NCBI RefSeq assembly: GCF_000016745.1
Contig: NC_009483.1
Coordinates: forward strand, 4,440,001-4,472,000
DNA: 32,000 bases
Origin: Geotalea uraniireducens Rf4
GTDB taxonomy: Bacteria; Desulfobacterota; Desulfuromonadia; Geobacterales; Geobacteraceae
Direction: 5' to 3'
Part shown: piece after piece, positions 1,880-28,251 of the stretch
Numbering within the stretch: the stretch's first letter is position 1
How the letters are laid out: every line of letters begins with the position of its first letter
Translations under genes and position numbers: made by a program
Notes under the pieces: model-generated
What the model saw: the letters and a program-made list of their open reading frames with translations, nothing else
What the model was told of the DNA's origin: nothing
Database searches by the model: none

Positions 1880-1925
1880 TATTCCATTTCCCTTCCTAAC
1901 AACATTAGCTAAACAGTTCTTGCTG

Positions 1926-5972: not shown

Positions 5973-6048
5973 GCCTTGTATCCTACTAATACATAATCTT
6001 GTTCCATAATTACTCCTTGTAAATCTTTCTGACCTGTTAAATCCGGGT

Positions 6049-6678: not shown

Positions 6679-8427
6679 TCAGCCGCATGAATTCCCCCGA
6701 AACTGATTCAGCATAAAATCAATCATCCGCCTGATCGGGCTGGTTACTCTCCAGATCAAAGAATTCTCCAAGGCACTAATTTTATGATCGTACTCTGCAA
6801 TTACTTGTTCTTGCCTTGCAATGATTTCGTCATATTCTAGCGATTTGCATCGAAACTGATTCTCCAGTTCAGCATACTCCTGTGCAATTTGCTCGATCCG
6901 CTCAGTCTGCCCCCTGTATCCAAGCCATAAGGCATTATAGTCGGCCATGCGTTGCAGTATCGATTTCTGCAAATAGGCTAATTCCGCTTCAGCCCTATCT
7001 CCCTCTTCATTAAGAACATCTTCCAATTGCCGAGGCAGATCACTGCGCGCAAAAATCCAGCTAGCACGCGCGAAATCAATCCCTAGAGCAAGCGGATCCT
7101 CCCCTTGCCGGAATATGGCTATCACCGGCACACCTAACGCCTGGGCAACCTTCAGAGGTACTCCGCTAGGGCCGATTAACAATCTGCTCGTAGAAACCGC
7201 TGCCGCCATTGCACGAAAGTCGACTCGCTCACCGTTGTCGATACTGTAAGCCGCCCCATCGTCAAGAACCTCCACTATAACCGGCTCATACCCTGCTTCA
7301 GCAACAAGGGCCTTGATCTGCTCAAAATGCTCGTCCTCGCACGAAACCGTCAGGACAGCATATTCCTTGCCTGGAACCAAGAAGGGAGTTGCAATGGTCT
7401 GTTTCAACGAATCCAGATGAAGTACAGGAAAAAGCCGGGTAATGGTTACGACAGCCTGCTCTGCCAAAGCAAGGACCACCGGTTGTCCGGGGGGGATACT
7501 ACTGAAATCAAGGTCGATGATCCTGTCATAGCCTTCATGATCTGGTACCTCGTTCGGCAGAAAACAGGCGTCAACAGCGGGATGAAGTAAGAACACCTCA
7601 GGATGATTGGTGATCAGGTCGAAGTTTACCAATAATTGCTCGTCCTTGAGCCTCTGCAGCACCGTGGTAACGGCCAGCAGGCTGTCAAGACTGTCGGTAA
7701 CGGCACAAATCAACACGCGGCCGGTGAAAGAGCGTTTCTCCAGGTAACCGGACCATCTCTTTTGAAACGTTTTGTGATTGCGGGCGCGAACCCTCGACAA
7801 CAACACTTTATCGATAGTGGCAGAGGTGGCATTATCAATATGTTCGTGTAAGCAACTGACAAGCTGGATATCGAACCCCATCTGACGGTATCTCAAGGAT
7901 AAGTCTACATCTTCCCAGTATGCCAACTCATACTCTTCGGCAAAAAGTCCAAAACTATCGGCCATTCTCCTCGGGATCATCAGGCAAGAAGCCTGTATAT
8001 ACTCCCCTCTTGCTGGTTCCTTCACACCATGACCGATATCATCCAGTGCAGAATAACCACCTGTAAAACCTACAATTGCCAACCTGGCATTTTCGTCAAA
8101 ACACCTGGAAAGCTTCTCCAGCCAGCCTGACTCATGGATGAAGATATCGTTATTGAGGACAACAAAATATTCACCACGCGCCTCAAGCAGGGCCTGATTG
8201 TGTGGGTGTCCAAACCCCGTGTTGTACGCATAGGAAATGATTTTACAGTTTGCATGGCAAAGGGAGTAGTCGCGCAGAAATTCGGCAGTACCATCGACTG
8301 AACCGTTATCGCTGATGATGAGTTCATAATCAGGACCTGAATTGGCTTCGATCAATTGAAGGCACTTCTTGGTAATATCCAGATTATTGAGAACGACAAT
8401 CGAGATGCTATATCGAATATTCCCCAT
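6679..8427 (-). CDS. Bifunctional-looking glycosyltransferase: N-terminal GT2 domain, central GT9-like (heptosyltransferase-like) domain, C-terminal coiled coil with a conserved tail motif
   Basis: The GT2 signature is SIVVLNNLDITKKCLQLIEANSGPDYELIISDNGSVDGT with WEDVDLSLR. The central part (GRVLICAVTDSLDSLLAVTTVLQRLK ... LLIGPSGVPLKVAQALGVPVIAIF) resembles GT9. The tail is ...ISALENSLIWRVTSPIRRMIDF. Confidence 0.8.
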   Translation of the reverse strand: MGNIRYSISIVVLNNLDITKKCLQLIEANSGPDYELIISDNGSVDGTAEFLRDYSLCHANCKIISYAYNTGFGHPHNQALLEARGEYFVVLNNDIFIHESGWLEKLSRCFDENARLAIVGFTGGYSALDDIGHGVKEPARGEYIQASCLMIPRRMADSFGLFAEEYELAYWEDVDLSLRYRQMGFDIQLVSCLHEHIDNATSATIDKVLLSRVRARNHKTFQKRWSGYLEKRSFTGRVLICAVTDSLDSLLAVTTVLQRLKDEQLLVNFDLITNHPEVFLLHPAVDACFLPNEVPDHEGYDRIIDLDFSSIPPGQPVVLALAEQAVVTITRLFPVLHLDSLKQTIATPFLVPGKEYAVLTVSCEDEHFEQIKALVAEAGYEPVIVEVLDDGAAYSIDNGERVDFRAMAAAVSTSRLLIGPSGVPLKVAQALGVPVIAIFRQGEDPLALGIDFARASWIFARSDLPRQLEDVLNEEGDRAEAELAYLQKSILQRMADYNALWLGYRGQTERIEQIAQEYAELENQFRCKSLEYDEIIARQEQVIAEYDHKISALENSLIWRVTSPIRRMIDFMLNQFRGNSCG

Positions 8428-8476
8428 AAATTTCTTTGCCCTGACGACCTTATTTGTGTAGGTTTTACTCTGGTGG

Positions 8477-9385
8477 TTATCTTCTGTAATTGCCTACACC
8501 TAGTTTTGTCAAAATAACTGCATTCAGCCATCTAAGTGGCTTGGTTATCCTCCAGCTAAAGGAATTAATCAGATCGGTAATCCTCTGGTCTCGGTCTGCC
8601 AACTGCCTGTCTCGGTCTGTCAGTTGTCGGTCACGTTCAGCCAACTGATGCTCTTTTTGCTTTATGTCTAATTCAATGTATTGTAATTTATCCTTAAACA
8701 ATACATATTCAGCCGGAAAATTTTCTTTATAAATAAGTGCTCTGTCTTCCCAAAAATCCATATCTTGTACATTAGAAGAACGTCCATTAATTCCATACTT
8801 TGCTATAATATTATTTACATACTTTGATCTAACCCCATCGTTATTAAACCATTTCATATTGAAGACATAATCAGCCAATATTTTATATTTGGTATCAAAT
8901 TTACCCAATTTACTAAATATTGATTTTTCATAAAATATTGCCTGATGGCAAATATTTTGATCCATCAATTTAAGCGTAGAAAATTTACCATCATAAATTT
9001 TGCCGGTATCCCCCCATAGCACATTACCGTAAACAACATCAAATAAATCTATTCCGCCAATATTGAATATTTCTTCAAGAACCGTGTCATTATAGAAAAC
9101 GTCGTCACAGCCCAGAAAATATATCCATTCGCCACTTGTCAGGTCAATCGCCTTATTCATGGCGTCATAAATGCCATTGTCTTTTTCAGAGATGAATTTT
9201 ATATGTGAATATTTATCTGCGTATCGCTTTACAATCTCTAAAGTGGCATCTGTCGAGGCTCCATCAATAATCAAATGCTCCTTATTCTTATATGTCTGAT
9301 GGGCAACACTTAACAGGCATGTCTCTATATCATTTACAGCATTATATGTAGGAGTTACAATGCTTACTTTCCGGTTACTTTCCAC
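8477..9385 (-). CDS. GT2 family glycosyltransferase with a C-terminal coiled coil and tail motif
   Basis: VSIVTPTYNAVNDIETCLLSVAHQTYKNKEHLIIDGASTDATLEIV plus GCDD (DxD-like). The C-terminus is QLAERDRQLTDRDRQLADRDQRITDLINSFSWRITKPLRWL. Confidence 0.85.
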   Translation of the reverse strand: MESNRKVSIVTPTYNAVNDIETCLLSVAHQTYKNKEHLIIDGASTDATLEIVKRYADKYSHIKFISEKDNGIYDAMNKAIDLTSGEWIYFLGCDDVFYNDTVLEEIFNIGGIDLFDVVYGNVLWGDTGKIYDGKFSTLKLMDQNICHQAIFYEKSIFSKLGKFDTKYKILADYVFNMKWFNNDGVRSKYVNNIIAKYGINGRSSNVQDMDFWEDRALIYKENFPAEYVLFKDKLQYIELDIKQKEHQLAERDRQLTDRDRQLADRDQRITDLINSFSWRITKPLRWLNAVILTKLGVGNYRR

Positions 9386-9484
9386 TTTTCAATAGCTCCT
9401 ATCAACGCAACATAAACTAAAAGGTTGTAGATTCTGTACCCTGGCAAGGAATCTAAAGCCAACTAATGATAGTATAAATTGTGT

Positions 9485-9529
9485 CTAACTGTCGCCTAAG
9501 CTGCCGCCGTCGATGATGATGTATTCAAG
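9485..9529 (-). pseudogene. Possible relic of a GT2 gene (a 15-codon fragment)
   Basis: The minus-strand reading in the 250-bp spacer gives LEYIIIDGGSLGDS*. This closely mirrors NLEYIIMDGGSSDNS in the neighbouring tandem-GT2 gene. It is a very short match, so the call is tentative. Confidence 0.3.
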
Positions 9530-9636
9530 GCTTTAATAATGGTTCTAAAGCTTATTTAGGAATAATTACATAACCCTGTATCAAGCGGTAACAGCAGACC
9601 AGTTTACTGCATTACGCCCTAGCTTTTCGATAATCG

Positions 9637-11454
9637 TCACCGTCTTAACCTGTCCGCCAAACATCTTAGGGGCTTGGTCAGACGCCAGCTGAGAGAATTT
9701 CTCATTGCATGAAGTTCGTTTTGGGCAGTACTGTCCGCTTCACAGCATGCTAGTTGCGCTGAAACATGCCTTAACTCCTCGACTTTGCGCAAAAGACAGG
9801 CAATGACACGATCAGAATCATCGGAAAGAGTGAAAGGTTTTGAATTGCTGACCGAATAAATGTCGTCAATATATGCCTTAACCTCACGCGCTGATATCGA
9901 AACCGGGTCCGGTGCAGACGACAACCCGGCTTCACCGTTCTTCCGGTACAGTACCATTTCTTCATCGAGTATTTTTTCGGACTCTGCCACATACCTGTCC
10001 ATGAAGAGCGCTGCCTTCTGATTGCCATGAGAACGATAGCCGCCAAGGAGAGTGTCCACCGTATAAAGTTCGGCATGGCGGAAAAAACGGTTCCACAGTT
10101 CCAGGTCTCCCGCGTAATCCAGATCAGTGCGAAGCTCTCCCCCTGCCCTTTGCCAGAGAGACCTTTTCCAGAAGGTACTTTCCTGCTGTATGAACGGGTC
10201 GTTGTATGCCTTGTTCAATATCTTTACCCGGTTATAGCCGGGTAAATAATCAAAAACACCGCACATATCGCCATCTTTATCCCAAAAGGCGGGACGGCCG
10301 GTCAGCCACTCGATGTTTCTGAATCGGGAAAATGAATAGGCAACCTTGTAAAACGCAACGTGGTGGTACTTGTCATCTGAATTCAGCCACGCCATTATCT
10401 CGCCGCTAGTTTTTTTGAAGCCGTCATTTATGGCGTTATACTGGCCCCCATCCGGCTGGCTCTGCCAGTATACAAGGTGTTTTTCGTACTTTTTTATAAT
10501 ATCAACCGACTTATCAGTACTGCCTCCATCCATTATGATGAATTCGAGATTGGGGTAATTCTGCCCCAGTACGGAATCGATGCACTCTTCGAGGAATTCG
10601 CCCTGATTAAAGGATGGGGTGACTATGGAGAATTTCGGCGGGGGATTTTTTACAAAAATCTGCATGGTTGAACCGGATGGCGGATATTTTATCAAGGGTG
10701 GGGCGATGGCGTCCAAATCAAGGTTATCGCTCCTGACAGACTTTTCACTTTCTATGGCACTCTCGCATTCACGAATGTATTCGTCGCGCATTATCTGCGA
10801 GCGCTGCGCTGGGCCGTAGAACCTGAACCCGGCGATCAGTGCGTCAACGGTATGGATCTGGGCATGCCTGGAGAATCTAAGCCACAGCTCAAAATCCGCT
10901 GCCAGCTCGAAGGACAAGTCAAGCCCCTCCCCGGCCTTTTCCCAGAGACTGCGCCGCCAATAGGTGGCCTCCTGCATGATGAAGGCATATCTGTGGACAT
11001 AGCTTTGATCTAGCAGGATCTCCCTGCTCCATGTTTGCCGTTCAATGCCGTAGGAATTCAGGTGTCCCATAGCATCAAAACCGACCCGTCTCCCTGTGAG
11101 GACGTTGACCTCCGGCATCTCGGAAAAGATTTCAGCCAGGACAAAAAGACCGCCAGGATGAAACATATCGTCGGAGTTCAACCAACCCATGACTTCGCCA
11201 TTCGATCTTTTAAAGCCTTCGTTTAACGCAGCATAGTGCCCGCCATCAGGCTTACTCTGCCAGTAAGTCAGGTATTTTTCGTATTTTTTAATAATTTCGA
11301 TGGAATTATCGCTGCTCCCTCCATCCATGATTATGTATTCGAGGTTGGGGTAATTCTGGGAAAGTATGGAGTCGATACACTTCTCCAGAAATTCCCCCTG
11401 GTTGAAAGAAGGGGTGACTATTGATATAGATGGGAAAGTATTATTGTATGCCAT
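9637..11454 (-). CDS. Dual-domain GT2 glycosyltransferase (internal tandem duplication) with a C-terminal coiled coil and tail motif
   Basis: Two copies of the same module are present: SISIVTPSFNQGEFLEKCIDSILSQNYPNLEYIIMDGGSSDNSIEIIKKYEKYLTYWQSKPDGGHY...WLNSDD and KFSIVTPSFNQGEFLEECIDSVLGQNYPNLEFIIMDGGSTDKSVDIIKKYEKHLVYWQSQPDGGQY...WLNSDD. The tail is ...MRNSLSWRLTKPLRCLADRLRR. Confidence 0.85.
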   Translation of the reverse strand: MAYNNTFPSISIVTPSFNQGEFLEKCIDSILSQNYPNLEYIIMDGGSSDNSIEIIKKYEKYLTYWQSKPDGGHYAALNEGFKRSNGEVMGWLNSDDMFHPGGLFVLAEIFSEMPEVNVLTGRRVGFDAMGHLNSYGIERQTWSREILLDQSYVHRYAFIMQEATYWRRSLWEKAGEGLDLSFELAADFELWLRFSRHAQIHTVDALIAGFRFYGPAQRSQIMRDEYIRECESAIESEKSVRSDNLDLDAIAPPLIKYPPSGSTMQIFVKNPPPKFSIVTPSFNQGEFLEECIDSVLGQNYPNLEFIIMDGGSTDKSVDIIKKYEKHLVYWQSQPDGGQYNAINDGFKKTSGEIMAWLNSDDKYHHVAFYKVAYSFSRFRNIEWLTGRPAFWDKDGDMCGVFDYLPGYNRVKILNKAYNDPFIQQESTFWKRSLWQRAGGELRTDLDYAGDLELWNRFFRHAELYTVDTLLGGYRSHGNQKAALFMDRYVAESEKILDEEMVLYRKNGEAGLSSAPDPVSISAREVKAYIDDIYSVSNSKPFTLSDDSDRVIACLLRKVEELRHVSAQLACCEADSTAQNELHAMRNSLSWRLTKPLRCLADRLRR

Positions 11455-12318: not shown

Positions 12319-13653
12319 CTATTTCCATTTAAATATTTTGATTATCCATTCAAATAATTTTTGATATCTTTCACATAGAGTACCGATTTGGGATTGTACC
12401 CCCTCGGTTAAATTCTTATCTTGCATTGAATGAAGTAATTGGGCGTTTTTATAGTCCATAAAATTGGCATACTGTTTAAGCATTAACTCTTTCACCTCGG
12501 CACTTTCCTTATGCTCAGCAAAAACGACCGATTGTTTCGGAGATTCACCCTTGTACGCCAACATCAGCGCTTTTTTCACATCCTCTACCTCAACCAATCT
12601 TACACAAGGTGCGTCGATAAACGGGCATTCCCATGTACAGCCGAAGCAAGGTAAATCTCCTGCAACCGCTATTGCTCTATTCCCGACGGGAAGAAACCTC
12701 GGCCAATACCCCCCTCCGAAAATACCGACAACTGGAATACCGACAGCAGAAGCCATATGCATGGGCCCAGAATCATTCCCAAGATAGAATGATGCCTTGC
12801 TTAAAATGGCCAACAACAACGGCAGCTGCCCAGCCTTTCCAGTCCAGAGTGATGAACTACCCCCTCGATCATGTAACATCCCGGAAATATTTTGCAAAAG
12901 TTCACGTTCGTTCTCCTGACCAACTAACAAAACCTTTAGGGAAAACTTTTCACAGGCCCAAAGTATCACGTCTACAAATCGTTCAAGAGGCCACATCTTG
13001 ATAGGCACATTCTGTCCGCCGCCCGGCAAGCAGACGAAATATTCTTGTAAGCTAAGTCCGTTCTCAAGAAGAACAGACTCCGCTTCAACCAACGATTCAG
13101 AACCTAGCGACAATCCCGTCAGCTGTGTGTGGGGGGGCTCATCGAAAAGAGTCTCATACAAGATTTTATATTTGTCCGTCTCATGACTTGTACCACTAAC
13201 TGGAACATAATAATCCCAACAAGCCTTGCCTCTCAAGCCGAAAACGTCCAGTACTTTGGTATGACTTTCCTCTAATCTCCGATTATCTCCAATAGCTATA
13301 CTCTTATCAGCATGCACACTGGCATTAATGATTGAGTCAAGCCAAGTACGAGTATATGCAGTATTAAGGAGCAAATCCCACGACGTCTCACCAAGCCTCT
13401 TCAGCAAAGCATCAACATGAAGGCGATCAAGGGGATCATAATTCGCGTAAGGGAAAAGACTAGTAGTGATCCAGCGAAGACGAGGCGAAAGAACTGGAGC
13501 TAACTGATCATACCCATCCCTGACTAACATCGTTATTTCTGCATGCGGAAGTCGTTCAAGTAATGAATCTATAAAATTGGCCAGAAGAATGATGTCGCCA
13601 AAGGTGTCAAATCGGGGAATCAGTATTTTATTAGCTTCTTGAATTTTAGGCAC
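12319..13653 (-). CDS. GT9 family glycosyltransferase (heptosyltransferase-like)
   Basis: ILIPRFDTFGDIILLANFIDSLLERLPHAEITMLV at the N-terminus and YLGNDSGPMHMASAVGIPVVGIFGG are GT9 signatures. A Cys-rich segment (CFGCTWECPFIDAPC) and a helical tail follow. Confidence 0.8.
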   Translation of the reverse strand: MPKIQEANKILIPRFDTFGDIILLANFIDSLLERLPHAEITMLVRDGYDQLAPVLSPRLRWITTSLFPYANYDPLDRLHVDALLKRLGETSWDLLLNTAYTRTWLDSIINASVHADKSIAIGDNRRLEESHTKVLDVFGLRGKACWDYYVPVSGTSHETDKYKILYETLFDEPPHTQLTGLSLGSESLVEAESVLLENGLSLQEYFVCLPGGGQNVPIKMWPLERFVDVILWACEKFSLKVLLVGQENERELLQNISGMLHDRGGSSSLWTGKAGQLPLLLAILSKASFYLGNDSGPMHMASAVGIPVVGIFGGGYWPRFLPVGNRAIAVAGDLPCFGCTWECPFIDAPCVRLVEVEDVKKALMLAYKGESPKQSVVFAEHKESAEVKELMLKQYANFMDYKNAQLLHSMQDKNLTEGVQSQIGTLCERYQKLFEWIIKIFKWK

Positions 13654-13695: not shown

Positions 13696-14760
13696 CTAAC
13701 GATCTCTCCGCAACTTATCACAAATTCTGCGAAATGGCGCGGTTAGCCTCCAAGTAAAACTGTTCAGTACTTTATCTAAAGACCTTTCATGCTGTCGCGT
13801 TGTAAGCAACTCTGACTGAAGTTTGCCCAATGCCATTTCAAGCTCAGCAATTCGAGTCTGTGCACCTTCCTCGCATAACTCAAGCTTATTATATGTGTCC
13901 AAAAGGGCCAGAATAGCTCTTTTATAAGGGTCCTGCATTAGCGTCTGACTTACTTCAGCCTTATCATGTTTTGTTAAAGGATGCTTACCAGCAAAGATGA
14001 ACATATCATATGCAAATATTGGTGTTTCAAATGCTACATTAGTTAAACCAACACGAGAGAGGAGAAGGCGGACTGAATCTTCATTAAAAAGGTAGAGATG
14101 TTCGTCTTCTTTCAAATGAAGCAGGAACATCTCATTATCAGCTTTCATCTCATGATATGTCTTGGCAACACTGCGCCAGCATGGCGTTTGAATGACCGCA
14201 ATCCCGTCTTCCTTTAAAGTTGACACAATTCGGCTCAATACCTGCACAGGATCGGGAAAGTGCTCAAGTACATCCATAAATATAACAGCATCAAGTGTCC
14301 CAGGTTGAACATCAATTTTTTCAATGCCGCCACAATACATCGGGACATCGAACGTAGTCCGAGCAAATTCGCACAGCCAATTGCTCATTTCAGCACCAGA
14401 AGCATCATATCCCGCTTGGCGCTGAAGATAAACCGAGCCACCGTGAGCGCATCCTAGTTCGAGGGTTCTTGCAGGAGGTAGTTTGTATTGCAGTATACTT
14501 CTTAACCAGTAGACACTTCGTTCAGTAAGATCTGACCGTGATCGTTCATAAATATCAGGGAATCCGAGTTTTTTGACATGCTTCGTCCAGTATTCTTTGC
14601 CATAGAGATCGTCGGTAGAATCTCCCCCCTTGTAGAAATCTTCTGTTTTACGAAAACGACTCACAAGAGTATTGCATTGTGAACAACGATTGTAATGTTC
14701 GGAAAAGGGGATAAGTTCGCCAGAACCACACCAACATGAGATTAACTCTAAATCACTCAA
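13696..14760 (-). CDS. Class I SAM-dependent methyltransferase with an N-terminal zinc-ribbon-like CxC/CxxC pair, a C-terminal coiled coil and the tail motif
   Basis: CWCGSGELIPFSEHYNRCSQCNTLV, then TLELGCAHGGSVYL (motif I) and AVIFMDVLEHFPDP. The tail is ...SLDKVLNSFTWRLTAPFRRICDKLRR. Confidence 0.85.
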   Translation of the reverse strand: MSDLELISCWCGSGELIPFSEHYNRCSQCNTLVSRFRKTEDFYKGGDSTDDLYGKEYWTKHVKKLGFPDIYERSRSDLTERSVYWLRSILQYKLPPARTLELGCAHGGSVYLQRQAGYDASGAEMSNWLCEFARTTFDVPMYCGGIEKIDVQPGTLDAVIFMDVLEHFPDPVQVLSRIVSTLKEDGIAVIQTPCWRSVAKTYHEMKADNEMFLLHLKEDEHLYLFNEDSVRLLLSRVGLTNVAFETPIFAYDMFIFAGKHPLTKHDKAEVSQTLMQDPYKRAILALLDTYNKLELCEEGAQTRIAELEMALGKLQSELLTTRQHERSLDKVLNSFTWRLTAPFRRICDKLRRDR

Positions 14761-15617
14761 CGTTTCGCCCCTTGCTTTCGGACTAAGAAGACAGCACCAC
14801 TACCTACAGGCCAGTTTGTTTCCATCGCAAGAAGTGCGCGAATTATGCGGCCCAACTCATCTGGGAAATTATTAAGGCCTCTGAAATAAGGCTCTAAAAC
14901 AGATCCAAACTCGCTACCATCAGCAATCGGCACATGCCAAAGAGTATCAAGAAAGAGATTTGACCTCCCAAGCAGTTCCGGAACAATAGGAACATGTTCA
15001 ACAATTTCGAATCCGGCTTTTCTTAGAATATTTGCCCATATGTTAGGTGGAAATGCGCTTACCAAATGATGATATGCTTTATAGCTATCAAGCAAATGGG
15101 CTGCAACGTCACTATCCTGGACCACCTTCATCAACTGCGGCAGAGTTGTCCATTCCAAAAATTTATCAGTAGTGACACTGAGCAGGAACAGTCCGTTAGG
15201 GACTAAAACGTCCCATATTTTATTTAGTACTATGTCAACATTATCCATATGCTCCAAGGAACAATTAGCAAAGACCGATGCGAATGATTCTGGAGAAAAT
15301 GACATGTCCAGAGCCGGAGTGTTATAAACTGCACTGTATACACCAGAATCTCTCGCTGCGCCGATTGCCGAAACATCGATATCAACGCCAACGACACTAT
15401 TTATTTCCGGCCAAACAAGCCGGAAATACTGTCCGTCACCACAACCGACATCCAGAATTGGCTCTGGGAGTGAGTACCGCTTATAAGCAGCGTATTCGCA
15501 AGCTCGCCAAATAGACATCGATGGTATGAACGGATAAAGCTTGCTGACAAGATCATATCCATTCATTATTGAGTCCACAGTTAATAGTTTTGTTTCATCT
15601 AATAGCATATTACCCAC
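14757..15617 (-). CDS. Class I SAM-dependent methyltransferase
   Basis: ILDVGCGDGQYF (motif I) and FANCSLEHMDN. It overlaps the downstream gene by 4 nt and the upstream gene by 8 nt, which suggests translational coupling. Confidence 0.85.
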   Translation of the reverse strand: MGNMLLDETKLLTVDSIMNGYDLVSKLYPFIPSMSIWRACEYAAYKRYSLPEPILDVGCGDGQYFRLVWPEINSVVGVDIDVSAIGAARDSGVYSAVYNTPALDMSFSPESFASVFANCSLEHMDNVDIVLNKIWDVLVPNGLFLLSVTTDKFLEWTTLPQLMKVVQDSDVAAHLLDSYKAYHHLVSAFPPNIWANILRKAGFEIVEHVPIVPELLGRSNLFLDTLWHVPIADGSEFGSVLEPYFRGLNNFPDELGRIIRALLAMETNWPVGSGAVFLVRKQGAKR

Positions 15618-16629
15618 CTATAAAACTGACTGGATCATTTAGTGCGTGTTTGTGTTCGTTTATAGAAGACATTGGCATATGAAAAGTGCACTTACGGCAA
15701 TATCGGGGAACAGCAGAGTTAAGATCAATCAATTTATGGTACTTTTCACTATTACACATATCTAGCAATGACATATTAACTATATTACCCAGATGAAATT
15801 CAGGAACTCTATCGTAATCATCACATGGGCAATAAGAAATATCACCATTGGAAAAAACCTGCAGGGCTATCACTGGTATCAAGCAATGATCTATGACGAA
15901 TTTGTTGTCCAACCATTCTGCATCAAACGGCAATTTAGTTGAGGTGTCCAGAATGTTCCAATTGGCATATTTTGTTACTTTATGATGTTTTATATTTTTG
16001 GACTTCAAGTTATTAATTATCCAATTATCAAAATCATGATCTGACCTGTTTTTCAATAATCTAAAACCCAGTTCTATTTTTGAACAATCTTCGACAGAGG
16101 ACAATATTCTGTTTACGCCGTCAACCATTTTATGATAATTATCTGTTCTAGTCATTAACTTGTATTCTTCTTGGTCAATTCCATATATTGATATCATTAT
16201 TTTATTAACATTATTTGTTATATATTTAATTGAACTAACAGGTAAATCACCAGCCATAATCGCATTGGTCGTAAAACTAATAGACGTTATGTTTTCGTAT
16301 TTTCTTGCGATTTTTATTCTGTCAATTAAATACTTATCAAGTAACACGTCACCAACAACCGGTGTTAAAGAAAGACAACCACCACCCATTTCGCTATAGC
16401 TTTTAAGTACTTTGTCAAATAGATCACACGACATAGTAGTTTTAGTTCTTTTCATATAAGAATAAGCACAGACTATGCAATTGTTATTGCATATATTAAC
16501 GGTCTCGCATATCAACATAGCAGGTCTATATCTGCCATTAAATCCAATATAATCGGCTATTGATGAGGACAACCCCGTTACTCTCATTATTTCGTGCACT
16601 ATTAATGATGTCATGTTATTTGCTACCAT
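15610..16629 (-). CDS. Radical SAM protein with a C-terminal Cys-rich (SPASM/twitch-like) region
   Basis: The CxxxCxxC motif is CNNNCIVCAY. The C-terminal cysteines are SYCPCDDYD ... DMCNSEKY ... RYCRKCTF. Confidence 0.85.
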   Translation of the reverse strand: MVANNMTSLIVHEIMRVTGLSSSIADYIGFNGRYRPAMLICETVNICNNNCIVCAYSYMKRTKTTMSCDLFDKVLKSYSEMGGGCLSLTPVVGDVLLDKYLIDRIKIARKYENITSISFTTNAIMAGDLPVSSIKYITNNVNKIMISIYGIDQEEYKLMTRTDNYHKMVDGVNRILSSVEDCSKIELGFRLLKNRSDHDFDNWIINNLKSKNIKHHKVTKYANWNILDTSTKLPFDAEWLDNKFVIDHCLIPVIALQVFSNGDISYCPCDDYDRVPEFHLGNIVNMSLLDMCNSEKYHKLIDLNSAVPRYCRKCTFHMPMSSINEHKHALNDPVSFIGG

Positions 16630-17369
16630 TTATTGTTTTCTTCATATTCCAAAGAAATAAGCAATTCACCGGCATTCTTTTTAAAGACATCTACATGCCT
16701 ATCAGTAAAATAATTTCGCCAGTCACCAACAACCCCTTTTCTTACGAAAGTATTATGTTTATATGCTTTACCTAGTTCTTTTTTCATGTTTTCTTTTGTA
16801 AATGCATTAACGCCTTTTATTATTGAATCATCGTCTTGCGAAACATTAATATGCCCGTAGATATCTTTTAATACAGAAAAAGCATCAACTATTAATTCTT
16901 CATACTTGAATGCTACAGTGTCGGTTTCCAGCCAACTCTCAACAAAAGCTGACCATTCCTTTGAAACCATATCGACGTAATCATCAAACGGAATGTTAAA
17001 ATCATCAATAATGCCATTTTTTACGCAAAAATCCTTTTCAAAGAAGTATTTTGAAACAATGACATCTCGGCCATCTCGTATTAAATGTACAAACTTTGCA
17101 GGAATCCTATGCCGGGCAGAATCCGGAAAGTCATGACTTTTGATAATACATGAGTCAGGCAAACCTAGAGAACTTGCATCAGTATACCAAGGGTGCTTAC
17201 TCGCATCATATCCATTTTCAGCTATATTTTCTGATATGTAAATGTCTCTTCTCGGCAGATTGAGACTATGGGCGAGCATACTGACAAGCCATGTACCGCC
17301 GGACTTCGGATATTCCACGACTATTATTTTGCCGACACCATGGTCATTACCAGTCATTTTTATTTTCAT
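16623..17369 (-). CDS. Sulfotransferase (PAPS-dependent family)
   Basis: The 5'-PSB-like loop is EYPKSGGTWLVSML, with IIKSHDF (candidate catalytic His), LIRDGRDVIVSKYF and RKGVVGDWRNYFT. The start is uncertain: candidate ATGs are at 17396, 17369 and 17357. The track start at 17471 would overlap wzt by 125 nt. Confidence 0.8.
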   Translation of the reverse strand: MKIKMTGNDHGVGKIIVVEYPKSGGTWLVSMLAHSLNLPRRDIYISENIAENGYDASKHPWYTDASSLGLPDSCIIKSHDFPDSARHRIPAKFVHLIRDGRDVIVSKYFFEKDFCVKNGIIDDFNIPFDDYVDMVSKEWSAFVESWLETDTVAFKYEELIVDAFSVLKDIYGHINVSQDDDSIIKGVNAFTKENMKKELGKAYKHNTFVRKGVVGDWRNYFTDRHVDVFKKNAGELLISLEYEENNKW

Positions 17370-19482
17370 ATCCTGTCTCAAGGAGTAATTCACCATATTT
17401 AAGCTTAAAATATTCTTTAACTTTTGGAGTAAAGTAGTTTTGCCAATCACCTGCAACTCCCTTCCTTTCATGGGCGGTTATATCTTCAACTCCGATTTTT
17501 CTACCACCTGTTAATTTTTCGAATCTATTTTTAATAATAACCTGCTCCAACAATTCAGGTTTCACTGAAAGTAGACATTTTTCAATCAAAACTTTTTGAA
17601 GTATTGCCACATCATCCTTCAGCAGGTCTTCATATCTAATAAGATCCTCTCCTGCATCAAGCCAGGATTTCTGAATATTTGCACTTAAATAAAGCCATTC
17701 ATCAATCAGATAAATCAACCCCTCTTCCAAACTCATAGAAACTAGGTTATCCCTGTAATTTGCAATGGTTGATGATAACACACCATGGCTAACCTTAAGA
17801 CTGAAATAACCAGAGATCAAGGTGTCTCGGAGATCACGTATAATGACAAAACGACGCCACAAAACAGGAAGCTTAACGCTCTCAAACTGCTCCTTTGTTA
17901 CGTAAACAGTTGGGTAAACCATACCCTCTCCAATTGGCTCGTTCAAGAAATGAGCTATCCCAAGCTTTGAATCAACGTACAAATCGGGAACCGCTTCCTT
18001 GAGAATCTTCTTAATCCATTGTGACCCAGCTTTCCAATGTGTTACATGGAGTATCGTCGGCATTTGAGTCCTCGTTTCTTCCGGTAGTCGCACATAGTTG
18101 CCTTTACGGTGAACCGTTGTGCCTGCATTTCCAGGCATATTACATATACCCGCGTGCAAACTAGCACTGTGCCCATCTTGCAGAGGCTTTTGAACCACTG
18201 TAAAACCGCCTACTGCCGATAGATGACATAGGCGCAATGTTTTTGCTTGAGTATTCGAAGGATGAGAATAAAGCCTATCGTCATAATCTTTCTTGCTTAA
18301 TGCTGACAAGCCCATGTCAATGGTGTACTCCCCTGGAGCAATGTCCAACACCACATCAAATCTGATGCGCACCCATTCCCCTTGAGGGACATATTCTGGT
18401 AGTACCAAGTTGTCATAGTGCAATAGATTCTTTCCGTGCACCACGACATTCCTTTCATTCTTTATGATAAAACCACCGATTGGGATCTCAATCGCCTCGT
18501 TCAACATAAATTCGCAAAAAATGCTTAAAGTACTTCCCTGGTAGAACAACTTTGTAGCTACACCGTTTTCGTTACACAGAGCGACTCCTGAGCAACAGGC
18601 AATACCATTTGATACTACATCAACCTTGGTAATATCAGAAAATTGGCTCACGTGGGGCCAGTAAAAAGTCACATCGTTGGTATCACCCTCTCCATCGGGG
18701 TGTATAAATGTTTGGGAAACATTATCCACATAATTTGCTAACCGCTCATGCTGTTGAACAAGGAGATAGCGCTTAACGGCTTCTGGTGATTTACCGAAAT
18801 ACTCCACTCTATTATCGTTGAGCAATAATGCCCGTTGACAGAACTGGACTACGTCCCCCATACCATGTGTAACAAAAAGAATAGAGACACCCTTATCTCT
18901 TAAATCTTCCAGTTTTCTATAGCATTTTTGCTGGAAAAATACGTCCCCAACCGATAAAGCTTCATCAACAATCAAAATTTGGGGTTCAACAATTGTTGCA
19001 ACTGAAAATGCAAGCCTGACAAACATTCCGCTTGAATAACTCTTTACCGGTTGGTTAACAAATGTACCAATATCAGCAAAAGAGAGAATATCATCCAGCC
19101 TTGCATCCATCTCCTCCCTGGTGTAACCCATCAAGGTACCGTTGAAATAGATGTTCTCAATACCGGTCAACTCGGGATTAAACCCCGCGCCAAGCTCCAG
19201 CAATGCAGAAATCTTGCCATTGACCGTCACATTGCCGCTCGTCGGGGTCAAAACGCCGGTGATGATCTTCAACAGCGTAGATTTGCCGGAACCGTTCTTG
19301 CCGATGATCCCGACAGTCTCGCCCTTCTTTATCTCAAAACTCACGTCATTGAGCGCATAAAAGTCTTTGTGATACTTTTTGCCGAAGGGGTTAACAGACT
19401 CTTTCAGACGATCAAGGGGGGTGTCGTAGAGTTTGTAGATCTTTGTGAGGTTTTGGACGGATATTGCGATGTCGTTGCTCAT
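17347..19482 (-). CDS. wzt: O-antigen/polysaccharide ABC transporter ATP-binding protein Wzt with a carbohydrate-binding module and a fused C-terminal sulfotransferase-like domain
   Basis: NBD: Walker A GKNGSGKST, signature YSSGM, Walker B ILIVDE (about 18748-19482). A beta-rich Wzt_C-like segment lies at about 18240-18660. The C-terminal roughly 230 aa (about 17350-18045) contain HVTHWKAGSQWIKKIL, IIRDLRDTLISGYFS and RKGVAGDWQNYFT, which parallel the downstream sulfotransferase. Confidence 0.9.
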   Translation of the reverse strand: MSNDIAISVQNLTKIYKLYDTPLDRLKESVNPFGKKYHKDFYALNDVSFEIKKGETVGIIGKNGSGKSTLLKIITGVLTPTSGNVTVNGKISALLELGAGFNPELTGIENIYFNGTLMGYTREEMDARLDDILSFADIGTFVNQPVKSYSSGMFVRLAFSVATIVEPQILIVDEALSVGDVFFQQKCYRKLEDLRDKGVSILFVTHGMGDVVQFCQRALLLNDNRVEYFGKSPEAVKRYLLVQQHERLANYVDNVSQTFIHPDGEGDTNDVTFYWPHVSQFSDITKVDVVSNGIACCSGVALCNENGVATKLFYQGSTLSIFCEFMLNEAIEIPIGGFIIKNERNVVVHGKNLLHYDNLVLPEYVPQGEWVRIRFDVVLDIAPGEYTIDMGLSALSKKDYDDRLYSHPSNTQAKTLRLCHLSAVGGFTVVQKPLQDGHSASLHAGICNMPGNAGTTVHRKGNYVRLPEETRTQMPTILHVTHWKAGSQWIKKILKEAVPDLYVDSKLGIAHFLNEPIGEGMVYPTVYVTKEQFESVKLPVLWRRFVIIRDLRDTLISGYFSLKVSHGVLSSTIANYRDNLVSMSLEEGLIYLIDEWLYLSANIQKSWLDAGEDLIRYEDLLKDDVAILQKVLIEKCLLSVKPELLEQVIIKNRFEKLTGGRKIGVEDITAHERKGVAGDWQNYFTPKVKEYFKLKYGELLLETGYENKNDW

Positions 19483-20244: not shown

Positions 20245-20267
20245 CGCGAATCTCCTCATTTCAAAAA

Positions 20268-20761: not shown

Positions 20762-20791
20762 CCCTTCATTGTTCATGTGGTTAGTTTTCTC

Positions 20792-20845: not shown

Positions 20846-20898
20846 GATTCAAAGCCTATACAACTTACGACTCACTTCTAACGATTCACGGCCCTTAC
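20846..20898. repeat. 53-bp dispersed repeat, copy 1 (partner at 24334-24386)
   Basis: gattcaaagcctatacaacttacgactcacttctaacgattcacggcccttac versus gattcaaagccgttacaactcacaactcacttctaacgattcacagcctttac gives 47/53 identical by hand alignment, in the same orientation. Copy 1 overlaps the wzm stop codon. Confidence 0.85.
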
Positions 20899-21707
20899 AG
20901 CACGTCAGCAAAATGCGGCCTGAGCCTCCGGAAAACCACTGCCCCCAAAATGAAGATGCAGCCGGTTACAATCCAGTAGTAAAGGGTAAGCATGTAGTGC
21001 TGCTCCCAGAACCAGACCTTATAGATGAAACTTTCCCGGTAGCCCTCCACCAGGTAATAGACCGGGTTGAGCTTGATCAGGTTCGCGTATTTGGCCGGGA
21101 GGATCTTGGCGGACCAGAAGATGGGGGTGAGCCAGAAGGCGAACTGGAGGACCATGGCCACCAGCTGCCCCACATCGCGGAGGAAGACCACCAGTGACGA
21201 GGTGAGCCAGGAGAGCCCCAGCAGCAACACTATTGCAGCGAAGAGGTAGTAGAACACTTGGAGGTAGTGAAGGTCCGGCGGATAGCCGTAGAGGATAGAC
21301 ATGATGAAGATGATGGCGATGAAGAAGCTGTGGATAATGAGGGCCGAGAGGATCTTGACGATGGGGAGCATGCCGATGCTGAAGACCACCTTCTTCAGGA
21401 GGAAGCTGTTGTCGATGATGGACATGGTTGCGCTCTGCAGACACTCGCTGAAGAAGAACCAGGGGATGATGCCGGTCATCATCCAGAGGACGAAAGGGTA
21501 GTCTGCCTGGGGCTGGGACTTGAAGCCGACCTGGAAGACGAACCAGAGGATGACGATGTAGATGGTCGGGTGAACGAAGGCCCACAGTATCCCCAGGTAG
21601 GAGCCGAGGTACTTGGTCTTGAAGTCACGCTTGGCCAGCTCCAGGATCATGTGCCGACGGGACCAGAGCTCCGTGAGAAAATTGGAAAACATCTTCAATG
21701 CTTGCAT
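20895..21707 (-). CDS. wzm: O-antigen/polysaccharide ABC transporter permease (ABC-2 type)
   Basis: 270 aa with about 6 hydrophobic segments. The start RRHMILELAKRDFKTKYLGSYLGILWAFVHP is the conserved ABC-2/Wzm N-terminal motif. Confidence 0.9.
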   Translation of the reverse strand: MQALKMFSNFLTELWSRRHMILELAKRDFKTKYLGSYLGILWAFVHPTIYIVILWFVFQVGFKSQPQADYPFVLWMMTGIIPWFFFSECLQSATMSIIDNSFLLKKVVFSIGMLPIVKILSALIIHSFFIAIIFIMSILYGYPPDLHYLQVFYYLFAAIVLLLGLSWLTSSLVVFLRDVGQLVAMVLQFAFWLTPIFWSAKILPAKYANLIKLNPVYYLVEGYRESFIYKVWFWEQHYMLTLYYWIVTGCIFILGAVVFRRLRPHFADVL

Positions 21708-28247: not shown

Positions 28248-28251
28248 GCCT

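What the first reader, a model, noticed from the sequence alone, without database searches (positions are those of the whole stretch)
17347..19482. Wzt with an unusual three-part architecture: ABC ATPase, carbohydrate-binding module and sulfotransferase-like domain
In the best-studied ABC-dependent O-antigen systems (for example E. coli O9a), a separate terminator enzyme caps the chain, and the C-terminal carbohydrate-binding module of Wzt recognises the cap before export. Here the 711-aa Wzt has the NBD (GKNGSGKST, YSSGM, ILIVDE) and a beta-rich Wzt_C-like segment. It then has an extra roughly 230-aa domain with sulfotransferase motifs (WKAGSQW resembling the PKSGTTW PAPS loop, IIRDLRD, RKGVAGDWQNYF). 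That would physically couple a capping or modifying activity, or a sulfate/PAP-binding sensor, to the exporter. I do not know of a described Wzt with this fusion.
Basis: partly seen in the sequence, partly recalled or inferred. Interest (0 to 1): 0.8.

Follow-up and report, generated by a model that had tools for sequence, protein, structure and literature searches.

The report
Glycan exporter ATPase fused to sulfotransferase
The ATP-driven motor protein of a sugar-polymer export pump in Geotalea uraniireducens really does carry, after its sugar-binding module, an extra sulfotransferase-type domain. This rare but recurring gene fusion suggests that sulfation of the polymer is tied to its export, but the activity has not been tested.

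Summary
The ORF is 711 aa at 17347-19482, on the minus strand. It has an ABC ATPase domain (1-245), a Wzt carbohydrate-binding domain (CBD, about 273-459), a disordered linker (460-475) and a sulfotransferase-fold domain, here ST1 (476-711). Pfam, PDB profile searches and two AlphaFold models (pLDDT 88-91) agree.

It is not a sequencing artefact. The identical protein is on record for Geotalea uraniireducens. Twelve other full-length relatives exist, and the related species G. toluenoxydans has the same fusion in a syntenic locus.

The protein arose by end-to-end fusion of wzt with the neighbouring ST1 gene. Other organisms keep the two genes separate but adjacent, or give ST1 its own copy of the CBD.

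ST1 keeps every PAPS-binding residue (K484, S487, R549, S557, R673-K674) but lacks the canonical catalytic His. A second, canonical sulfotransferase (ST2) overlaps the 3' end. Methyltransferases, a radical SAM enzyme, glycosyltransferases, wzm and PAPS-synthesis genes (cysD, cysNC) lie nearby.

Best reading: an exporter-tethered sulfotransferase acts on the end of a methylated, sulfated glycan and couples its maturation to export.

No description of this fusion was found, but one census paper could not be read. Related Wzt fusions to methyltransferases and to radical SAM enzymes are common in public data.

Novelty: a new variant of a known kind. Interest is moderate.

The parts
17347..19482 (-). 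wzt-ST1: 711-aa three-domain ORF, stop codon included
   Evidence: It is 100% identical to P0268, NCBI 'ATP-binding cassette domain-containing protein [Geotalea uraniireducens]'.
18748..19482 (-). Nucleotide-binding domain (residues 1-245): Walker A GKNGSGKST at 61, signature YSSGM at 149, Walker B ILIVDE at 169
   Evidence: Pfam ABC_tran E 4e-25. 48% identical to the A. aeolicus Wzt NBD (6m96, TM 0.93).
18106..18666 (-). Wzt-type carbohydrate-binding domain (residues about 273-459), beta jelly-roll
   Evidence: Pfam Wzt_C E 6e-15. Foldseek hits 2r5o, 5hno and 8dky at E about 1e-9. It is 39-49% identical to transporter CBDs but only 27-33% identical to the CBDs of CBD-ST1 proteins.
18058..18105 (-). 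Fusion linker (residues 460-475). Sequence varies among the fused relatives, and the linker contains M474, the vestigial start codon of the ancestral ST1 gene (ATG 18063-18061)
   Evidence: pLDDT is below 50 at 462-467. Junction mapping against split genes is, and the DNA is.
17350..18057 (-). ST1 sulfotransferase-fold domain (residues 476-711). Motifs: 5'-phosphosulfate loop THWKAGSQW (481-489), 3'-phosphate motif RDLRDTLISGY (549-559), RKGVAGDW (673-680). E531 sits where the canonical catalytic His would be, and H566 is invariant
16623..17357 (-). ST2: separate canonical sulfotransferase (244 aa; YPKSGGTW, KSH catalytic His, RKGVVGDW). Its ATG overlaps the last 11 nt of wzt-ST1
   Evidence: Pfam Sulfotransfer_1 E 5e-22. 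Sequence. PDB matches to cytosolic sulfotransferases over residues 11-234. It is conserved directly downstream in L003, L004, L005 and L008.
15610..16629 (-). Radical SAM/SPASM enzyme
   Evidence: The same position is occupied in L004.
14757..15617 (-). SAM-dependent methyltransferase 1
   Evidence: Conserved in L003, L004 and L008.
13696..14760 (-). SAM-dependent methyltransferase 2
   Evidence: Conserved in L003, L004, L008 and L030.
12319..13653 (-). GT9-family (heptosyltransferase-like) glycosyltransferase
   Evidence: Conserved in L004 and L008.
6679..11454 (-). Three GT2 glycosyltransferase genes (9637-11454 with two GT2 modules; 8477-9385; 6679-8427). The last has a C-terminal coiled-coil-like tail at about residues 490-560
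   Evidence: The coiled coil is read from the sequence by eye.
1926..6080 (-). 1384-aa multi-module GT4 glycosyltransferase (candidate polymerase)
923..1939 (-). GDP-mannose 4,6-dehydratase (Gmd), which supplies 6-deoxyhexose precursors
   Evidence: Pfam; NCBIfam gmd E 2e-104 but 349.5 bits, below its equivalog cut-off of 415.
20895..21707 (-). wzm, the ABC-2 permease partner of Wzt. Inserted genes separate it from wzt by 1.4 kb
   Evidence: Pfam ABC2_membrane E 2e-19 and NCBIfam Wzm/RfbD-like.
29047..30894 (-). cysNC: bifunctional sulfate adenylyltransferase subunit 1 / APS kinase (PAPS synthesis)
   Evidence: Pfam GTP_EFTU plus APS_kinase. NCBIfam CysN 351.6 bits against a cut-off of 336. 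In G. toluenoxydans this gene abuts wzm.
31416..32000 (-). cysD (sulfate adenylyltransferase subunit 2), cut by the window end
   Evidence: NCBIfam CysD 237 bits against a cut-off of 195. Translation.

Best explanation
This is a genuine Wzt, the ATPase subunit of a Wzm/Wzt ABC exporter for a lipid-linked glycan. A sulfotransferase has become covalently attached to the C-terminus of its carbohydrate-binding domain (CBD). Shown: the gene arose by read-through fusion of wzt with the next gene downstream, ST1. Residues 5-459 equal a whole split Wzt, and residues 476-711 equal a whole free-standing ST1. The two are joined by a variable, disordered linker of 16 residues that still holds the old start Met. 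Shown: the locus also encodes a canonical second sulfotransferase (ST2, translationally overlapped), two methyltransferases, a radical SAM enzyme, glycosyltransferases, Gmd, wzm and the PAPS-synthesis genes cysD and cysNC. Together these are a pathway for a methylated, sulfated 6-deoxyhexose or mannose-type glycan. Inferred: ST1 binds PAPS and transfers sulfate to the glycan at or near its non-reducing end, the end that Wzt CBDs recognise. Tethering ST1 to the CBD dimer under the transporter would mean the last maturation or capping step happens where the finished end is captured, and only finished chains are exported. ST2 probably adds a second sulfate or decorates the repeat units. Confidence by step: about 0.95 that the architecture is real and arose by gene fusion; about 0.7 that ST1 is a PAPS-dependent enzyme acting on this glycan; about 0.4 that its product is the export-licensing cap. 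The overall figure of 0.5 is for the whole statement, end-directed action included.
For: Domains and fold. Origin by fusion: junction mapping against the split pairs P0282+P0008, P0284+P0004 and P0285+P0070, the split locus L005 with wzt, ST1 and ST2 as separate genes, and a CBD that groups with transporter CBDs. Not an artefact: 13 fused sequences, and a second cultured species, G. toluenoxydans, with a syntenic locus. Functional link between ST1 and a Wzt-type CBD, seen three ways: adjacent genes, a fusion to Wzt, and about 444-aa CBD-ST1 proteins encoded right after a complete wzt. A neighbour-joining tree, without bootstrap support, suggests the fusion arose more than once (P0278 and P0121 lie outside the main fused clade). 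P0122 and P0151 carry different, more canonical sulfotransferase domains on a Wzt. Cofactor site kept: K484, S487, R549, S557 and R673 are invariant, and K674 is kept in 130 of 131 ST1 domains. These positions align with the catalytic Lys, the 3'-phosphate Arg and Ser and the RKG motif of SULT1E1. PAPS supply is encoded in the same cluster, and cysNC directly abuts wzm in G. toluenoxydans. Analogy: Wzt is also found fused to methyltransferases, FkbM methyltransferases and a radical SAM enzyme. Methylation is an established cap chemistry read by Wzt CBDs (PMC9445017). A coiled-coil-bearing glycosyltransferase, a marker of capped systems according to PMC11231755, is present.
Against: No activity, cofactor-binding or glycan-structure data exist. 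The canonical catalytic His is absent. By alignment the equivalent position is E531 in 11 of 13 fused proteins, but it is Gln in 39 of 61 CBD-ST1 proteins, so it is not a conserved base. The alternative candidates H566, H479, H482, Y527 and E666 could not be placed in 3D because model coordinates are not returned. Two sulfotransferases plus dedicated PAPS genes would fit bulk sulfation of repeat units as well as a single cap. Sulfate is not among the caps listed in the literature I could read (methyl, methyl-phosphate, Kdo). The relative orientation of the domains is not predicted with confidence (pTM 0.59-0.63).
Confidence: 0.5

Rival explanations
1. ST1 is a non-catalytic sulfotransferase-like module (a pseudoenzyme). 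It binds PAPS or PAP, or the sulfated chain end. It would act as a scaffold that recruits the canonical enzyme ST2 to the transporter, or as a sensor that gates export on PAPS availability or on completed sulfation.
For: The canonical catalytic His is missing, and the equivalent position is variable across the family (E, Q and others). In the fused clade and its split sister loci, a canonical sulfotransferase with an intact KSH motif always follows immediately, with overlapping or closely spaced start (L003, L004, L005, L008 and the window). From general knowledge, cytosolic sulfotransferases are commonly dimers, so an ST1-ST2 heterodimer is conceivable.
Against: The catalytic Lys and Ser pair (K484, S557) and further residues outside the nucleotide site (H566, Y527, E666, H479) are invariant or nearly so in 131 sequences. 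That pattern is more typical of an enzyme whose catalytic base has moved. In the held CBD-ST1 loci L001 and L002, no second sulfotransferase is seen within 8 kb, so there ST1 would be the only sulfotransferase. Carbohydrate sulfotransferases that use Glu instead of His as the base are known (general knowledge: heparan sulfate NST and 3-OST), and the fused clade has Glu at that position.
Confidence: 0.2
2. ST1 is an ordinary decorating sulfotransferase that sulfates internal repeat-unit residues. The fusion to Wzt is a neutral or merely co-localising accident of two adjacent genes and has no role in chain termination or export licensing.
For: The fusion is rare: 13 of the 2,207 hits at E <= 1e-100, and 2 of the 80 best genome loci. 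The commonest forms in the sample are separate genes. The junction is a simple read-through with an unstructured linker. Dedicated cysD and cysNC plus two sulfotransferases suggest substantial sulfate demand.
Against: ST1 has become joined to a Wzt-type CBD by two different routes: fusion to Wzt, and acquisition of its own CBD copy, which is found in about half of the sampled family members. Fusions of sulfotransferases to Wzt appear to have arisen several times. The fused form has persisted across 50-66% sequence divergence and in two Geotalea species with an otherwise diverged locus. Repeated selection for attachment to an end-recognising module argues for action at the chain end.
Confidence: 0.25
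3. The long ORF is an assembly or sequencing artefact (a lost stop codon or a frameshift) that joins two separate genes.
For: Closely related loci do have wzt and ST1 as separate genes 35 nt apart (L005). A Met with an upstream Shine-Dalgarno-like GAGGA survives at the old ST1 start.
Against: Thirteen independent sequences from different samples, and a second isolate genome (G. toluenoxydans JCM 15764), carry the same continuous ORF with different linker sequences. The Shine-Dalgarno-like motif is not significant, because 3 of the 10 internal ATGs have one.
Confidence: 0.02

Closest known systems
Aquifex aeolicus WzmWzt O-antigen ABC transporter (PDB 7k2t, 8dku, 8dky; PMC9445017)
   Same: The NBD plus C-terminal CBD architecture is shared. 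The NBD is 48% identical, and the full-length model matches at TM 0.74 with 34% identity. Both have a Wzm partner and methyltransferases in the locus. In A. aeolicus the CBD reads a small-group cap (3-O-methyl) on the non-reducing end.
   Different: A. aeolicus Wzt ends after the CBD. Here a 236-residue sulfotransferase-fold domain follows a flexible linker. The ligand of this CBD is unknown.
E. coli O9a / Klebsiella O3 system: Wzt CBD (2r5o) plus the separate terminator WbdD (kinase-methyltransferase with a coiled-coil ruler)
   Same: The logic is the same: a non-sugar group is added to the chain end, and a Wzt CBD then licenses export. The CBD fold matches at E about 1e-9.
   Different: WbdD is a separate, membrane-associated protein with a coiled coil and kinase and methyltransferase domains. 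Here the candidate modifying enzyme is a sulfotransferase fused to the transporter itself and has no coiled coil. CBD sequence identity is only about 15%.
PAPS-dependent cytosolic-type sulfotransferases (Pfam Sulfotransfer_1; SULT1E1 1hy3, SULT7A1 5x2b; bacterial Teg12 3mgc)
   Same: The fold is shared (Foldseek E 1e-8 to 1e-5). The 5'-phosphosulfate loop Lys, the 3'-phosphate Arg and Ser and the RKGxxGDWxNxFT motif are also shared.
   Different: The canonical catalytic His (KTH) is replaced: the aligned position is E531. The N-terminal half is too divergent for Pfam to align. The domain is fused to a transporter, and its presumed acceptor is a lipid-linked polysaccharide rather than a small molecule.
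CBD-ST1 proteins (about 444 aa, Wzt_C + Sulfotransfer_1) and free-standing ST1 (about 240 aa) encoded next to wzt in many phyla. These are uncharacterised database proteins, e.g. P0007 'Wzt carbohydrate-binding domain-containing protein [Anaerolineae bacterium]'
   Same: They belong to the same ST1 family (45-64% identity), share the same invariant residues and sit in the same gene neighbourhood of wzm, wzt and methyltransferases.
   Different: In those loci ST1 is a separate polypeptide, either bare or with its own paralogous CBD. In the window it shares the transporter's CBD.
Other Wzt-enzyme fusions in public data: Wzt + class I methyltransferase, Wzt + FkbM methyltransferase, Wzt + radical SAM
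   Same: The principle is the same: a small-group-modifying enzyme attached to NBD-CBD.
   Different: The chemistry differs, and in some cases the enzyme is at the N-terminus. As far as I could find, none has been characterised.

Membership tests
Wzt, the CBD-containing ATPase subunit of polysaccharide ABC exporters | ABC nucleotide-binding domain with Walker A, signature and Walker B motifs, of the Wzt/TagH type | tested here: met
   Pfam ABC_tran E 4e-25. The best NCBIfam hits are TagH and Wzt/RfbE models, though below their equivalog cut-offs. Foldseek to A. aeolicus Wzt gives E 1e-37.
Wzt, the CBD-containing ATPase subunit of polysaccharide ABC exporters | C-terminal jelly-roll carbohydrate-binding domain (Pfam Wzt_C) | tested here: met
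   Wzt_C scores 55.9 bits against a cut-off of 30.4. Foldseek to 2r5o, 5hno and 8dky gives E about 1e-9 with target TM 0.65-0.74.
Wzt, the CBD-containing ATPase subunit of polysaccharide ABC exporters | Partner ABC-2 permease Wzm encoded nearby within a glycan-biosynthesis cluster | tested here: met
   wzm lies at 20895-21707 on the same strand, 1.4 kb upstream; a toxin-antitoxin pair and an IVP gene are inserted between. Glycosyltransferases and Gmd lie downstream.
Wzt, the CBD-containing ATPase subunit of polysaccharide ABC exporters | CBD binds the modified non-reducing end and is needed for export | not testable with these tools
   This needs binding and export assays. Residues conserved across these CBDs (H349, K351, R372, H443) are only a lead.
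TagH / galactan Wzt equivalogs (NCBIfam NF010065, NF010066, NF050108) | Score above the curated equivalog cut-off | tested here: not met
   Scores of 238, 221 and 180 bits fall below the cut-offs of 538, 320 and 400. The protein is related to these families but is not a member.
PAPS-dependent sulfotransferase (Pfam Sulfotransfer_1, cytosolic sulfotransferase fold) | Match above the Pfam gathering score, and a sulfotransferase fold | tested here: met
   29 bits against a cut-off of 22, covering only residues 546-701. The whole domain matches solved sulfotransferases by Foldseek (E 9e-9 to 2e-5) and by profile search against the PDB (E 1e-6).
PAPS-dependent sulfotransferase (Pfam Sulfotransfer_1, cytosolic sulfotransferase fold) | PAPS-binding motifs: 5'-phosphosulfate loop with catalytic Lys, 3'-phosphate Arg and Ser, and C-terminal RKGxxGDW | tested here: met
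   K484 and S487, R549 and S557, and R673 are invariant and K674 is kept in 130 of 131 family members. They align to SULT1E1 K47, R129/S137 and R256-K257.
PAPS-dependent sulfotransferase (Pfam Sulfotransfer_1, cytosolic sulfotransferase fold) | Catalytic His base (KTH motif; His107 as counted on the SULT1E1 sequence used) | tested here: not met
   The aligned position is E531 (TKEQF) and varies across the family between E, Q and other residues. An alternative base is possible but not shown.
PAPS-dependent sulfotransferase (Pfam Sulfotransfer_1, cytosolic sulfotransferase fold) | Sulfate transfer from PAPS to an acceptor | not testable with these tools
   This is a biochemical assay.
WbdD-type chain terminator | Kinase and/or methyltransferase catalytic domains, followed by an extended coiled-coil ruler and a membrane-binding C-terminus | tested here: not met
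   ST1 contains no such domains and no coiled coil. A short coiled-coil-like tail exists instead on the GT2 protein at 6679-8427. The proposal is therefore that ST1 may work like a terminator, not that it is a WbdD.

The most novel reading that the evidence does not exclude
Sulfate would be a previously unrecognised chain-terminating cap for ABC-transporter-dependent glycans. It would be installed by a sulfotransferase that is part of the exporter itself, so one polypeptide writes the cap, reads it through its CBD and powers export. The free-standing CBD-ST1 proteins, found in many phyla, would be the stand-alone version of this terminator, targeted by a CBD instead of measuring chain length with a coiled-coil ruler. 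That would be a second, widespread logic for glycan chain termination.
Probability: 0.3. Interest if true: 0.75.

Novelty: new variant of a known kind. Interest (0 to 1): 0.55.

Why it matters
In the known capped systems, the enzyme that terminates the polymer and the transporter that checks the cap are separate proteins. The known caps are methyl, methyl-phosphate and Kdo.

A Wzt that carries its own sulfotransferase points to two new things. One is a possible new cap or end-modification chemistry, sulfate. The other is direct physical coupling of glycan maturation to export.

The ST1 family has at least 546 relatives among species-representative genomes from about ten phyla, many of them joined to a Wzt-type CBD. 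The CBD-enzyme module may therefore be a common, overlooked way of targeting a modifying enzyme to a glycan end.

Two cultured Geotalea species carry the fused form, so the idea can be tested by genetics and glycan chemistry. Sulfated surface glycans of metal-reducing subsurface bacteria could also matter for metal binding and mineral attachment, although nothing here tests that.

Tried and rejected
1. Deletion-fusion hypothesis. The protein aligns end to end with a Wzt and with a CBD-ST1 protein. I therefore first thought the gene arose by recombination between the two paralogous CBDs of a 'wzt | CBD-ST1' locus. I rejected this. The window CBD is 39-49% identical to transporter CBDs but only 27-33% to ST-linked CBDs. 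In addition, residues 5-459 and 476-711 match a complete split Wzt and a complete free ST1. A simple read-through fusion explains the data.

2. Internal translation start at M474. A GAGGA lies 5 nt upstream of that ATG, and G. toluenoxydans has a similar motif. However, 3 of the 10 in-frame internal ATGs in this ORF have such a motif, and L003, L004 and L030 lack the Met. This is not significant.

3. Locating an alternative catalytic base in 3D. The structure tool returns no coordinates, so H566, H482, Y527 and E666 could not be placed relative to the PAPS site. hhalign against SULT1E1 aligned only the C-terminal 60% of the domain.

4. Literature. Searches for Wzt with sulfotransferase, for cap or terminator with sulfate, and for G. 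uraniireducens with sulfotransferase found nothing relevant. The Mann, Kimber and Whitfield 2019 census and the 2020 JBC review are not held.

5. My first neighbour-joining tree used a mistranslated ST2 as outgroup. Ingroup clustering is unaffected, but the rooting is unreliable and there is no bootstrap support.

6. Phage, plasmid and defence-system libraries were not searched because they are not relevant here.

Full report
1. THE OBSERVATION

The ORF list gives one uninterrupted ORF at 17347-19482, on the minus strand, from ATG to TAA, encoding 711 aa.

Pfam finds three domains:
- ABC_tran at 44-176 (E 4e-25).
- Wzt_C at 292-398 (E 6e-15, above the gathering score).
- Sulfotransfer_1 at 546-701 (E 9e-7; 29 bits against a gathering score of 22).

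NCBIfam places the N-terminus nearest the TagH and Wzt/RfbE exporter ATPases, but below their equivalog cut-offs.

2. STRUCTURE

An AlphaFold2 model of residues 262-711, built on 60 homologues, has a mean pLDDT of 87.6. A full-length model has pLDDT 91.0. Both show three compact domains joined by low-confidence linkers at about 260-270 and 462-467. The pTM of 0.59-0.63 means the relative orientation of the domains is not defined.

Foldseek against the PDB gives these matches:
- The first 444 alignment columns match full-length Aquifex aeolicus Wzt (8dku_A, E 2e-37, target TM 0.74, 34% identity). The NBD alone matches at 48% identity.
- The middle domain matches the Wzt CBDs of E. coli O9a (2r5o), Klebsiella O12 (5hno) and A. 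aeolicus (8dky).
- The last domain matches cytosolic sulfotransferases (5x2b, 3ckl, 1hy3) and the bacterial glycopeptide sulfotransferase Teg12 (3mgc).

A profile of the family searched against PDB sequences gives the same two sets of hits. It aligns HvTHWKAGSQW with TYPKSGTTW, viRDLRDtLvSaY with vaRNaKDvaVSyY, and RKGiaGDWrNyFT with RKGitGDWKNHFT (hhalign).

3. SOURCE, AND WHETHER THE ORF IS AN ARTEFACT

The identical protein (P0268) is recorded by NCBI and UniRef as 'ATP-binding cassette domain-containing protein [Geotalea uraniireducens]', on a contig of 5,136,364 bp.

Twelve further proteins of 707-753 aa, 50-66% identical over the full length, have the same three Pfam domains. All come from metagenome assemblies.

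In an exhaustive scan of 1.84 billion cluster representatives, only two full-length matches appear (P0121 and P0122).

A scan of one genome per GTDB species with an ST1-domain profile found at least 546 relatives. Among the best 80 loci, two carry the fused ORF: Geotalea toluenoxydans JCM 15764 (L008) and a Tepidisphaeraceae MAG (L030).

The fusion is therefore real, conserved and rare. The 'missed stop or frameshift' alternative is excluded.

4. HOW THE FUSION AROSE

The ST1 domain family occurs in three arrangements.
- (a) Split: wzt (NBD-CBD, about 460-476 aa), then a free ST1 of about 240 aa. An example is L005, where a 35-nt gap separates the genes. L014, L027 and L074 are similar.
- (b) Own CBD: wzt, then a protein of about 444 aa made of a Wzt_C domain plus ST1. 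Examples are L001 and L002. These proteins make up about half of the sampled family.
- (c) Fused: the 711-aa form in the window.

Residues 5-459 of the window protein align with the split Wzt P0282 up to its last residue. Residues 476-711 align with the whole free ST1 protein P0008. The 16 residues between differ in every fused relative. Nine of the 13 fused proteins keep a Met just before 'PTIFHVTHW', where free ST1 proteins start.

The window CBD is 39-49% identical to transporter CBDs but only 27-33% identical to the CBDs of arrangement (b). The gene is therefore a plain read-through fusion of wzt and ST1, not a recombinant between paralogous CBDs as I first suspected.

In a neighbour-joining tree of ST1 domains (no bootstrap support), the window, P0269-P0277 and P0280 form one clade next to the arrangement-(a) ST1s. 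P0278 and P0121 branch elsewhere. P0122 and P0151 are Wzt proteins fused to different, more canonical sulfotransferase domains. Sulfotransferase-to-Wzt fusion seems to have happened several times.

5. THE ST1 DOMAIN

Across 131 ST1 domains, K484, S487, R549, S557, S565, H566 and R673 are invariant, and K674 is kept in 130 of 131. H479, Y527 and E666 are nearly invariant.

By alignment, these correspond to known functional positions in cytosolic sulfotransferases:
- K484 is the catalytic Lys of the 5'-phosphosulfate loop.
- R549 and S557 are the 3'-phosphate Arg and Ser.
- R673-K674-G675 is the RKG motif.

The canonical catalytic His (KTH in cytosolic sulfotransferases, KSH in ST2) is absent. 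The aligned residue is E531. It is Glu in 11 of 13 fused and 42 of 57 free ST1 domains, but Gln in 39 of 61 CBD-ST1 proteins.

ST1 is therefore a divergent sulfotransferase with an intact nucleotide site and an unresolved catalytic base. From general knowledge, Glu bases are used by heparan sulfate sulfotransferases. The invariant H566 aligns near SULT1E1 residue 146, an acceptor-pocket position, but this is an alignment-based inference only.

6. GENE CONTEXT

All of these genes are on the minus strand.
- Downstream of wzt-ST1 is ST2 (16623-17357), whose ATG overlaps the last 11 nt of wzt-ST1. It has a canonical YPKSGGTW loop, a KSH motif and RKGVVGDW.
- Then come a radical SAM/SPASM enzyme, two SAM-dependent methyltransferases and a GT9-family transferase.
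- Next are three GT2 genes. The product of one has a coiled-coil-like tail.
- Then come a 1384-aa multi-GT4 protein and Gmd.
- Upstream is wzm (20895-21707). It is separated from wzt by an inserted PemK-like toxin gene, a DUF2281 antitoxin-like gene and a PF05635 gene.
- Further upstream, beyond two IS elements, are cysNC and the 3' part of cysD, the PAPS-synthesis genes.

The order wzt-ST1, ST2, rSAM, MT, MT, GT9 is reproduced in the groundwater contig L004, which also ends in a PAPS_reduct-family gene. It is largely reproduced in L003.

In G. toluenoxydans, cysNC (83% identical) directly abuts wzm, whose first 120 residues are 91% identical. By contrast, wzt-ST1, ST2 and the methyltransferases are only 45-60% identical. 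Conserved flanks around a diverged centre are what one expects of a serotype-type glycan locus. They also tie PAPS synthesis to the cluster.

7. MECHANISM

Background from PMC9445017 and PMC11231755:
- In capped ABC-dependent systems a non-sugar group or Kdo is added to the non-reducing end.
- This stops elongation.
- The Wzt CBD dimer reads the cap and recruits the lipid-linked chain to the transporter.
- The listed caps are methyl, methyl-phosphate and Kdo.

The recurring attachment of ST1 to a Wzt-type CBD, by three genomic routes, fits an enzyme that needs to be brought to the chain end. Parallel Wzt fusions to methyltransferases (C- or N-terminal), FkbM methyltransferases and a radical SAM enzyme show the same principle. 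One of those chemistries, methylation, is an established cap.

My best explanation is that ST1 is a PAPS-dependent sulfotransferase acting at or near the non-reducing end. It is flexibly tethered below the transporter, so that end maturation and cap capture are coupled. ST2 would add a second sulfate or decorate the repeat units.

What is shown: the architecture, the origin by fusion, conservation of the cofactor site, and the gene context. What is inferred: catalysis, the acceptor, and the link to export licensing.

The rivals are:
- A pseudoenzyme that acts as scaffold or sensor and recruits ST2 (0.2).
- An ordinary internal decorating enzyme whose fusion has no functional meaning (0.25).
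- An artefact (0.02).

8. COMPARISON AND NOVELTY

The protein meets the testable criteria for a CBD-type Wzt. It has the fold and cofactor motifs of a sulfotransferase but not the canonical catalytic His. It is not a WbdD-type terminator: it has no kinase or methyltransferase domain and no coiled coil.

Public databases annotate it only as an ABC protein. Some relatives are labelled 'Wzt carbohydrate-binding domain-containing protein', or 'Wzt C-terminal domain/Sulfotransferase domain' by JGI, so the domain composition is already visible to automated annotation.

I found no paper describing a Wzt-sulfotransferase fusion or a sulfate cap. The 2019 census of terminators and CBM organisation by Mann, Kimber and Whitfield could not be read, so prior mention cannot be excluded.

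I rate the finding a new variant of a known kind, with interest 0.55. It would surprise specialists moderately. It also offers a testable route, in cultured Geotalea species, to a possible new cap chemistry and a new way of coupling termination to export.

Noticed in passing
window 20405-20803, 27589-27945, 30884-31255 (all minus), with repeats at 20331-20422, 20792-20845, 27500-27547, 28024-28248, 30805-30864, 31289-31407: There are three paralogous PF05635 genes ('23S rRNA intervening sequence protein', four-helix bundle). Each is bracketed by arrays of tandem heptamers, several of them perfect or nearly so, and the repeat unit differs from array to array (for example CTTCTCA x13 and GTTCCCA x32). 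They lie between operon genes (cysD|cysNC and wzm|wzt). They look like a repeated insertion cassette of unknown nature.
   Followed up: partly
window 19680-20259 (minus): A PemK/MazF-like toxin gene (19680-20021) and an overlapping DUF2281 antitoxin-like gene (19996-20259) are inserted between wzm and wzt.
   Followed up: partly
window 22574-24192 and 26148-27318 (plus): Two IS-type transposase gene pairs (HTH_Tnp_1 + rve; HTH_23 + rve) separate cysNC from wzm. In Geotalea toluenoxydans (L008), cysNC directly abuts wzm, so these are recent insertions into a once-contiguous cluster.
   Followed up: partly
window 18061-18073 (minus); L008 5990-6010: The start Met of the ancestral ST1 gene (M474) survives inside the fused ORF in 9 of 13 fused proteins. 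It has a GAGGA 5 nt upstream in the window and a GGAG 6 nt upstream in G. toluenoxydans. This could allow internal initiation of a free ST1. However, 3 of the 10 internal ATGs in this ORF have similar motifs, so the feature is not statistically notable.
   Followed up: yes
public proteins P0127, P0146, P0187, P0174, P0238, P0190, P0217, P0350, P0151, P0122: Wzt (ABC_tran + Wzt_C) also occurs fused to class I methyltransferases (C- or N-terminal), FkbM methyltransferases, a radical SAM domain and other sulfotransferase types. This is a broader, apparently undescribed class of exporter-enzyme fusions.
   Followed up: partly
window 16623-17357 (minus): The second sulfotransferase gene (ST2) starts with an ATG that overlaps the last 11 nt of wzt-ST1. 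The same overlap is seen in L003, L004 and L008, which suggests translational coupling. ST1-ST2 pairs also occur without an adjacent wzt in a MAG labelled Geobacteraceae by NCBI (P0013; loci L006 and L007).
   Followed up: partly
window residues H349, G350, K351, R372, H443 of the ORF (CBD; about 18154-18438): A set of basic residues is conserved in both the transporter CBDs and the ST-linked CBDs of this family, together with W275, P276, C297, C303 and Y386. They could form an anion (sulfate) binding site. This was not tested.
   Followed up: no
L008 1347-1706 compared with window 20895-21707: The wzm gene of G. toluenoxydans is 91% identical to the window's wzm over only the first 120 residues, while the downstream genes are 45-60% identical. 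This suggests a recombination breakpoint inside wzm, at the edge of a variable glycan locus.
   Followed up: no
window 6679-8427 (minus), residues about 490-582: This GT2 protein ends in a coiled-coil-like segment followed by 'SLIWRVTSPIRR'. It is a possible short molecular-ruler or recruitment element of the kind found in capped-glycan systems. This was judged by eye only.
   Followed up: no
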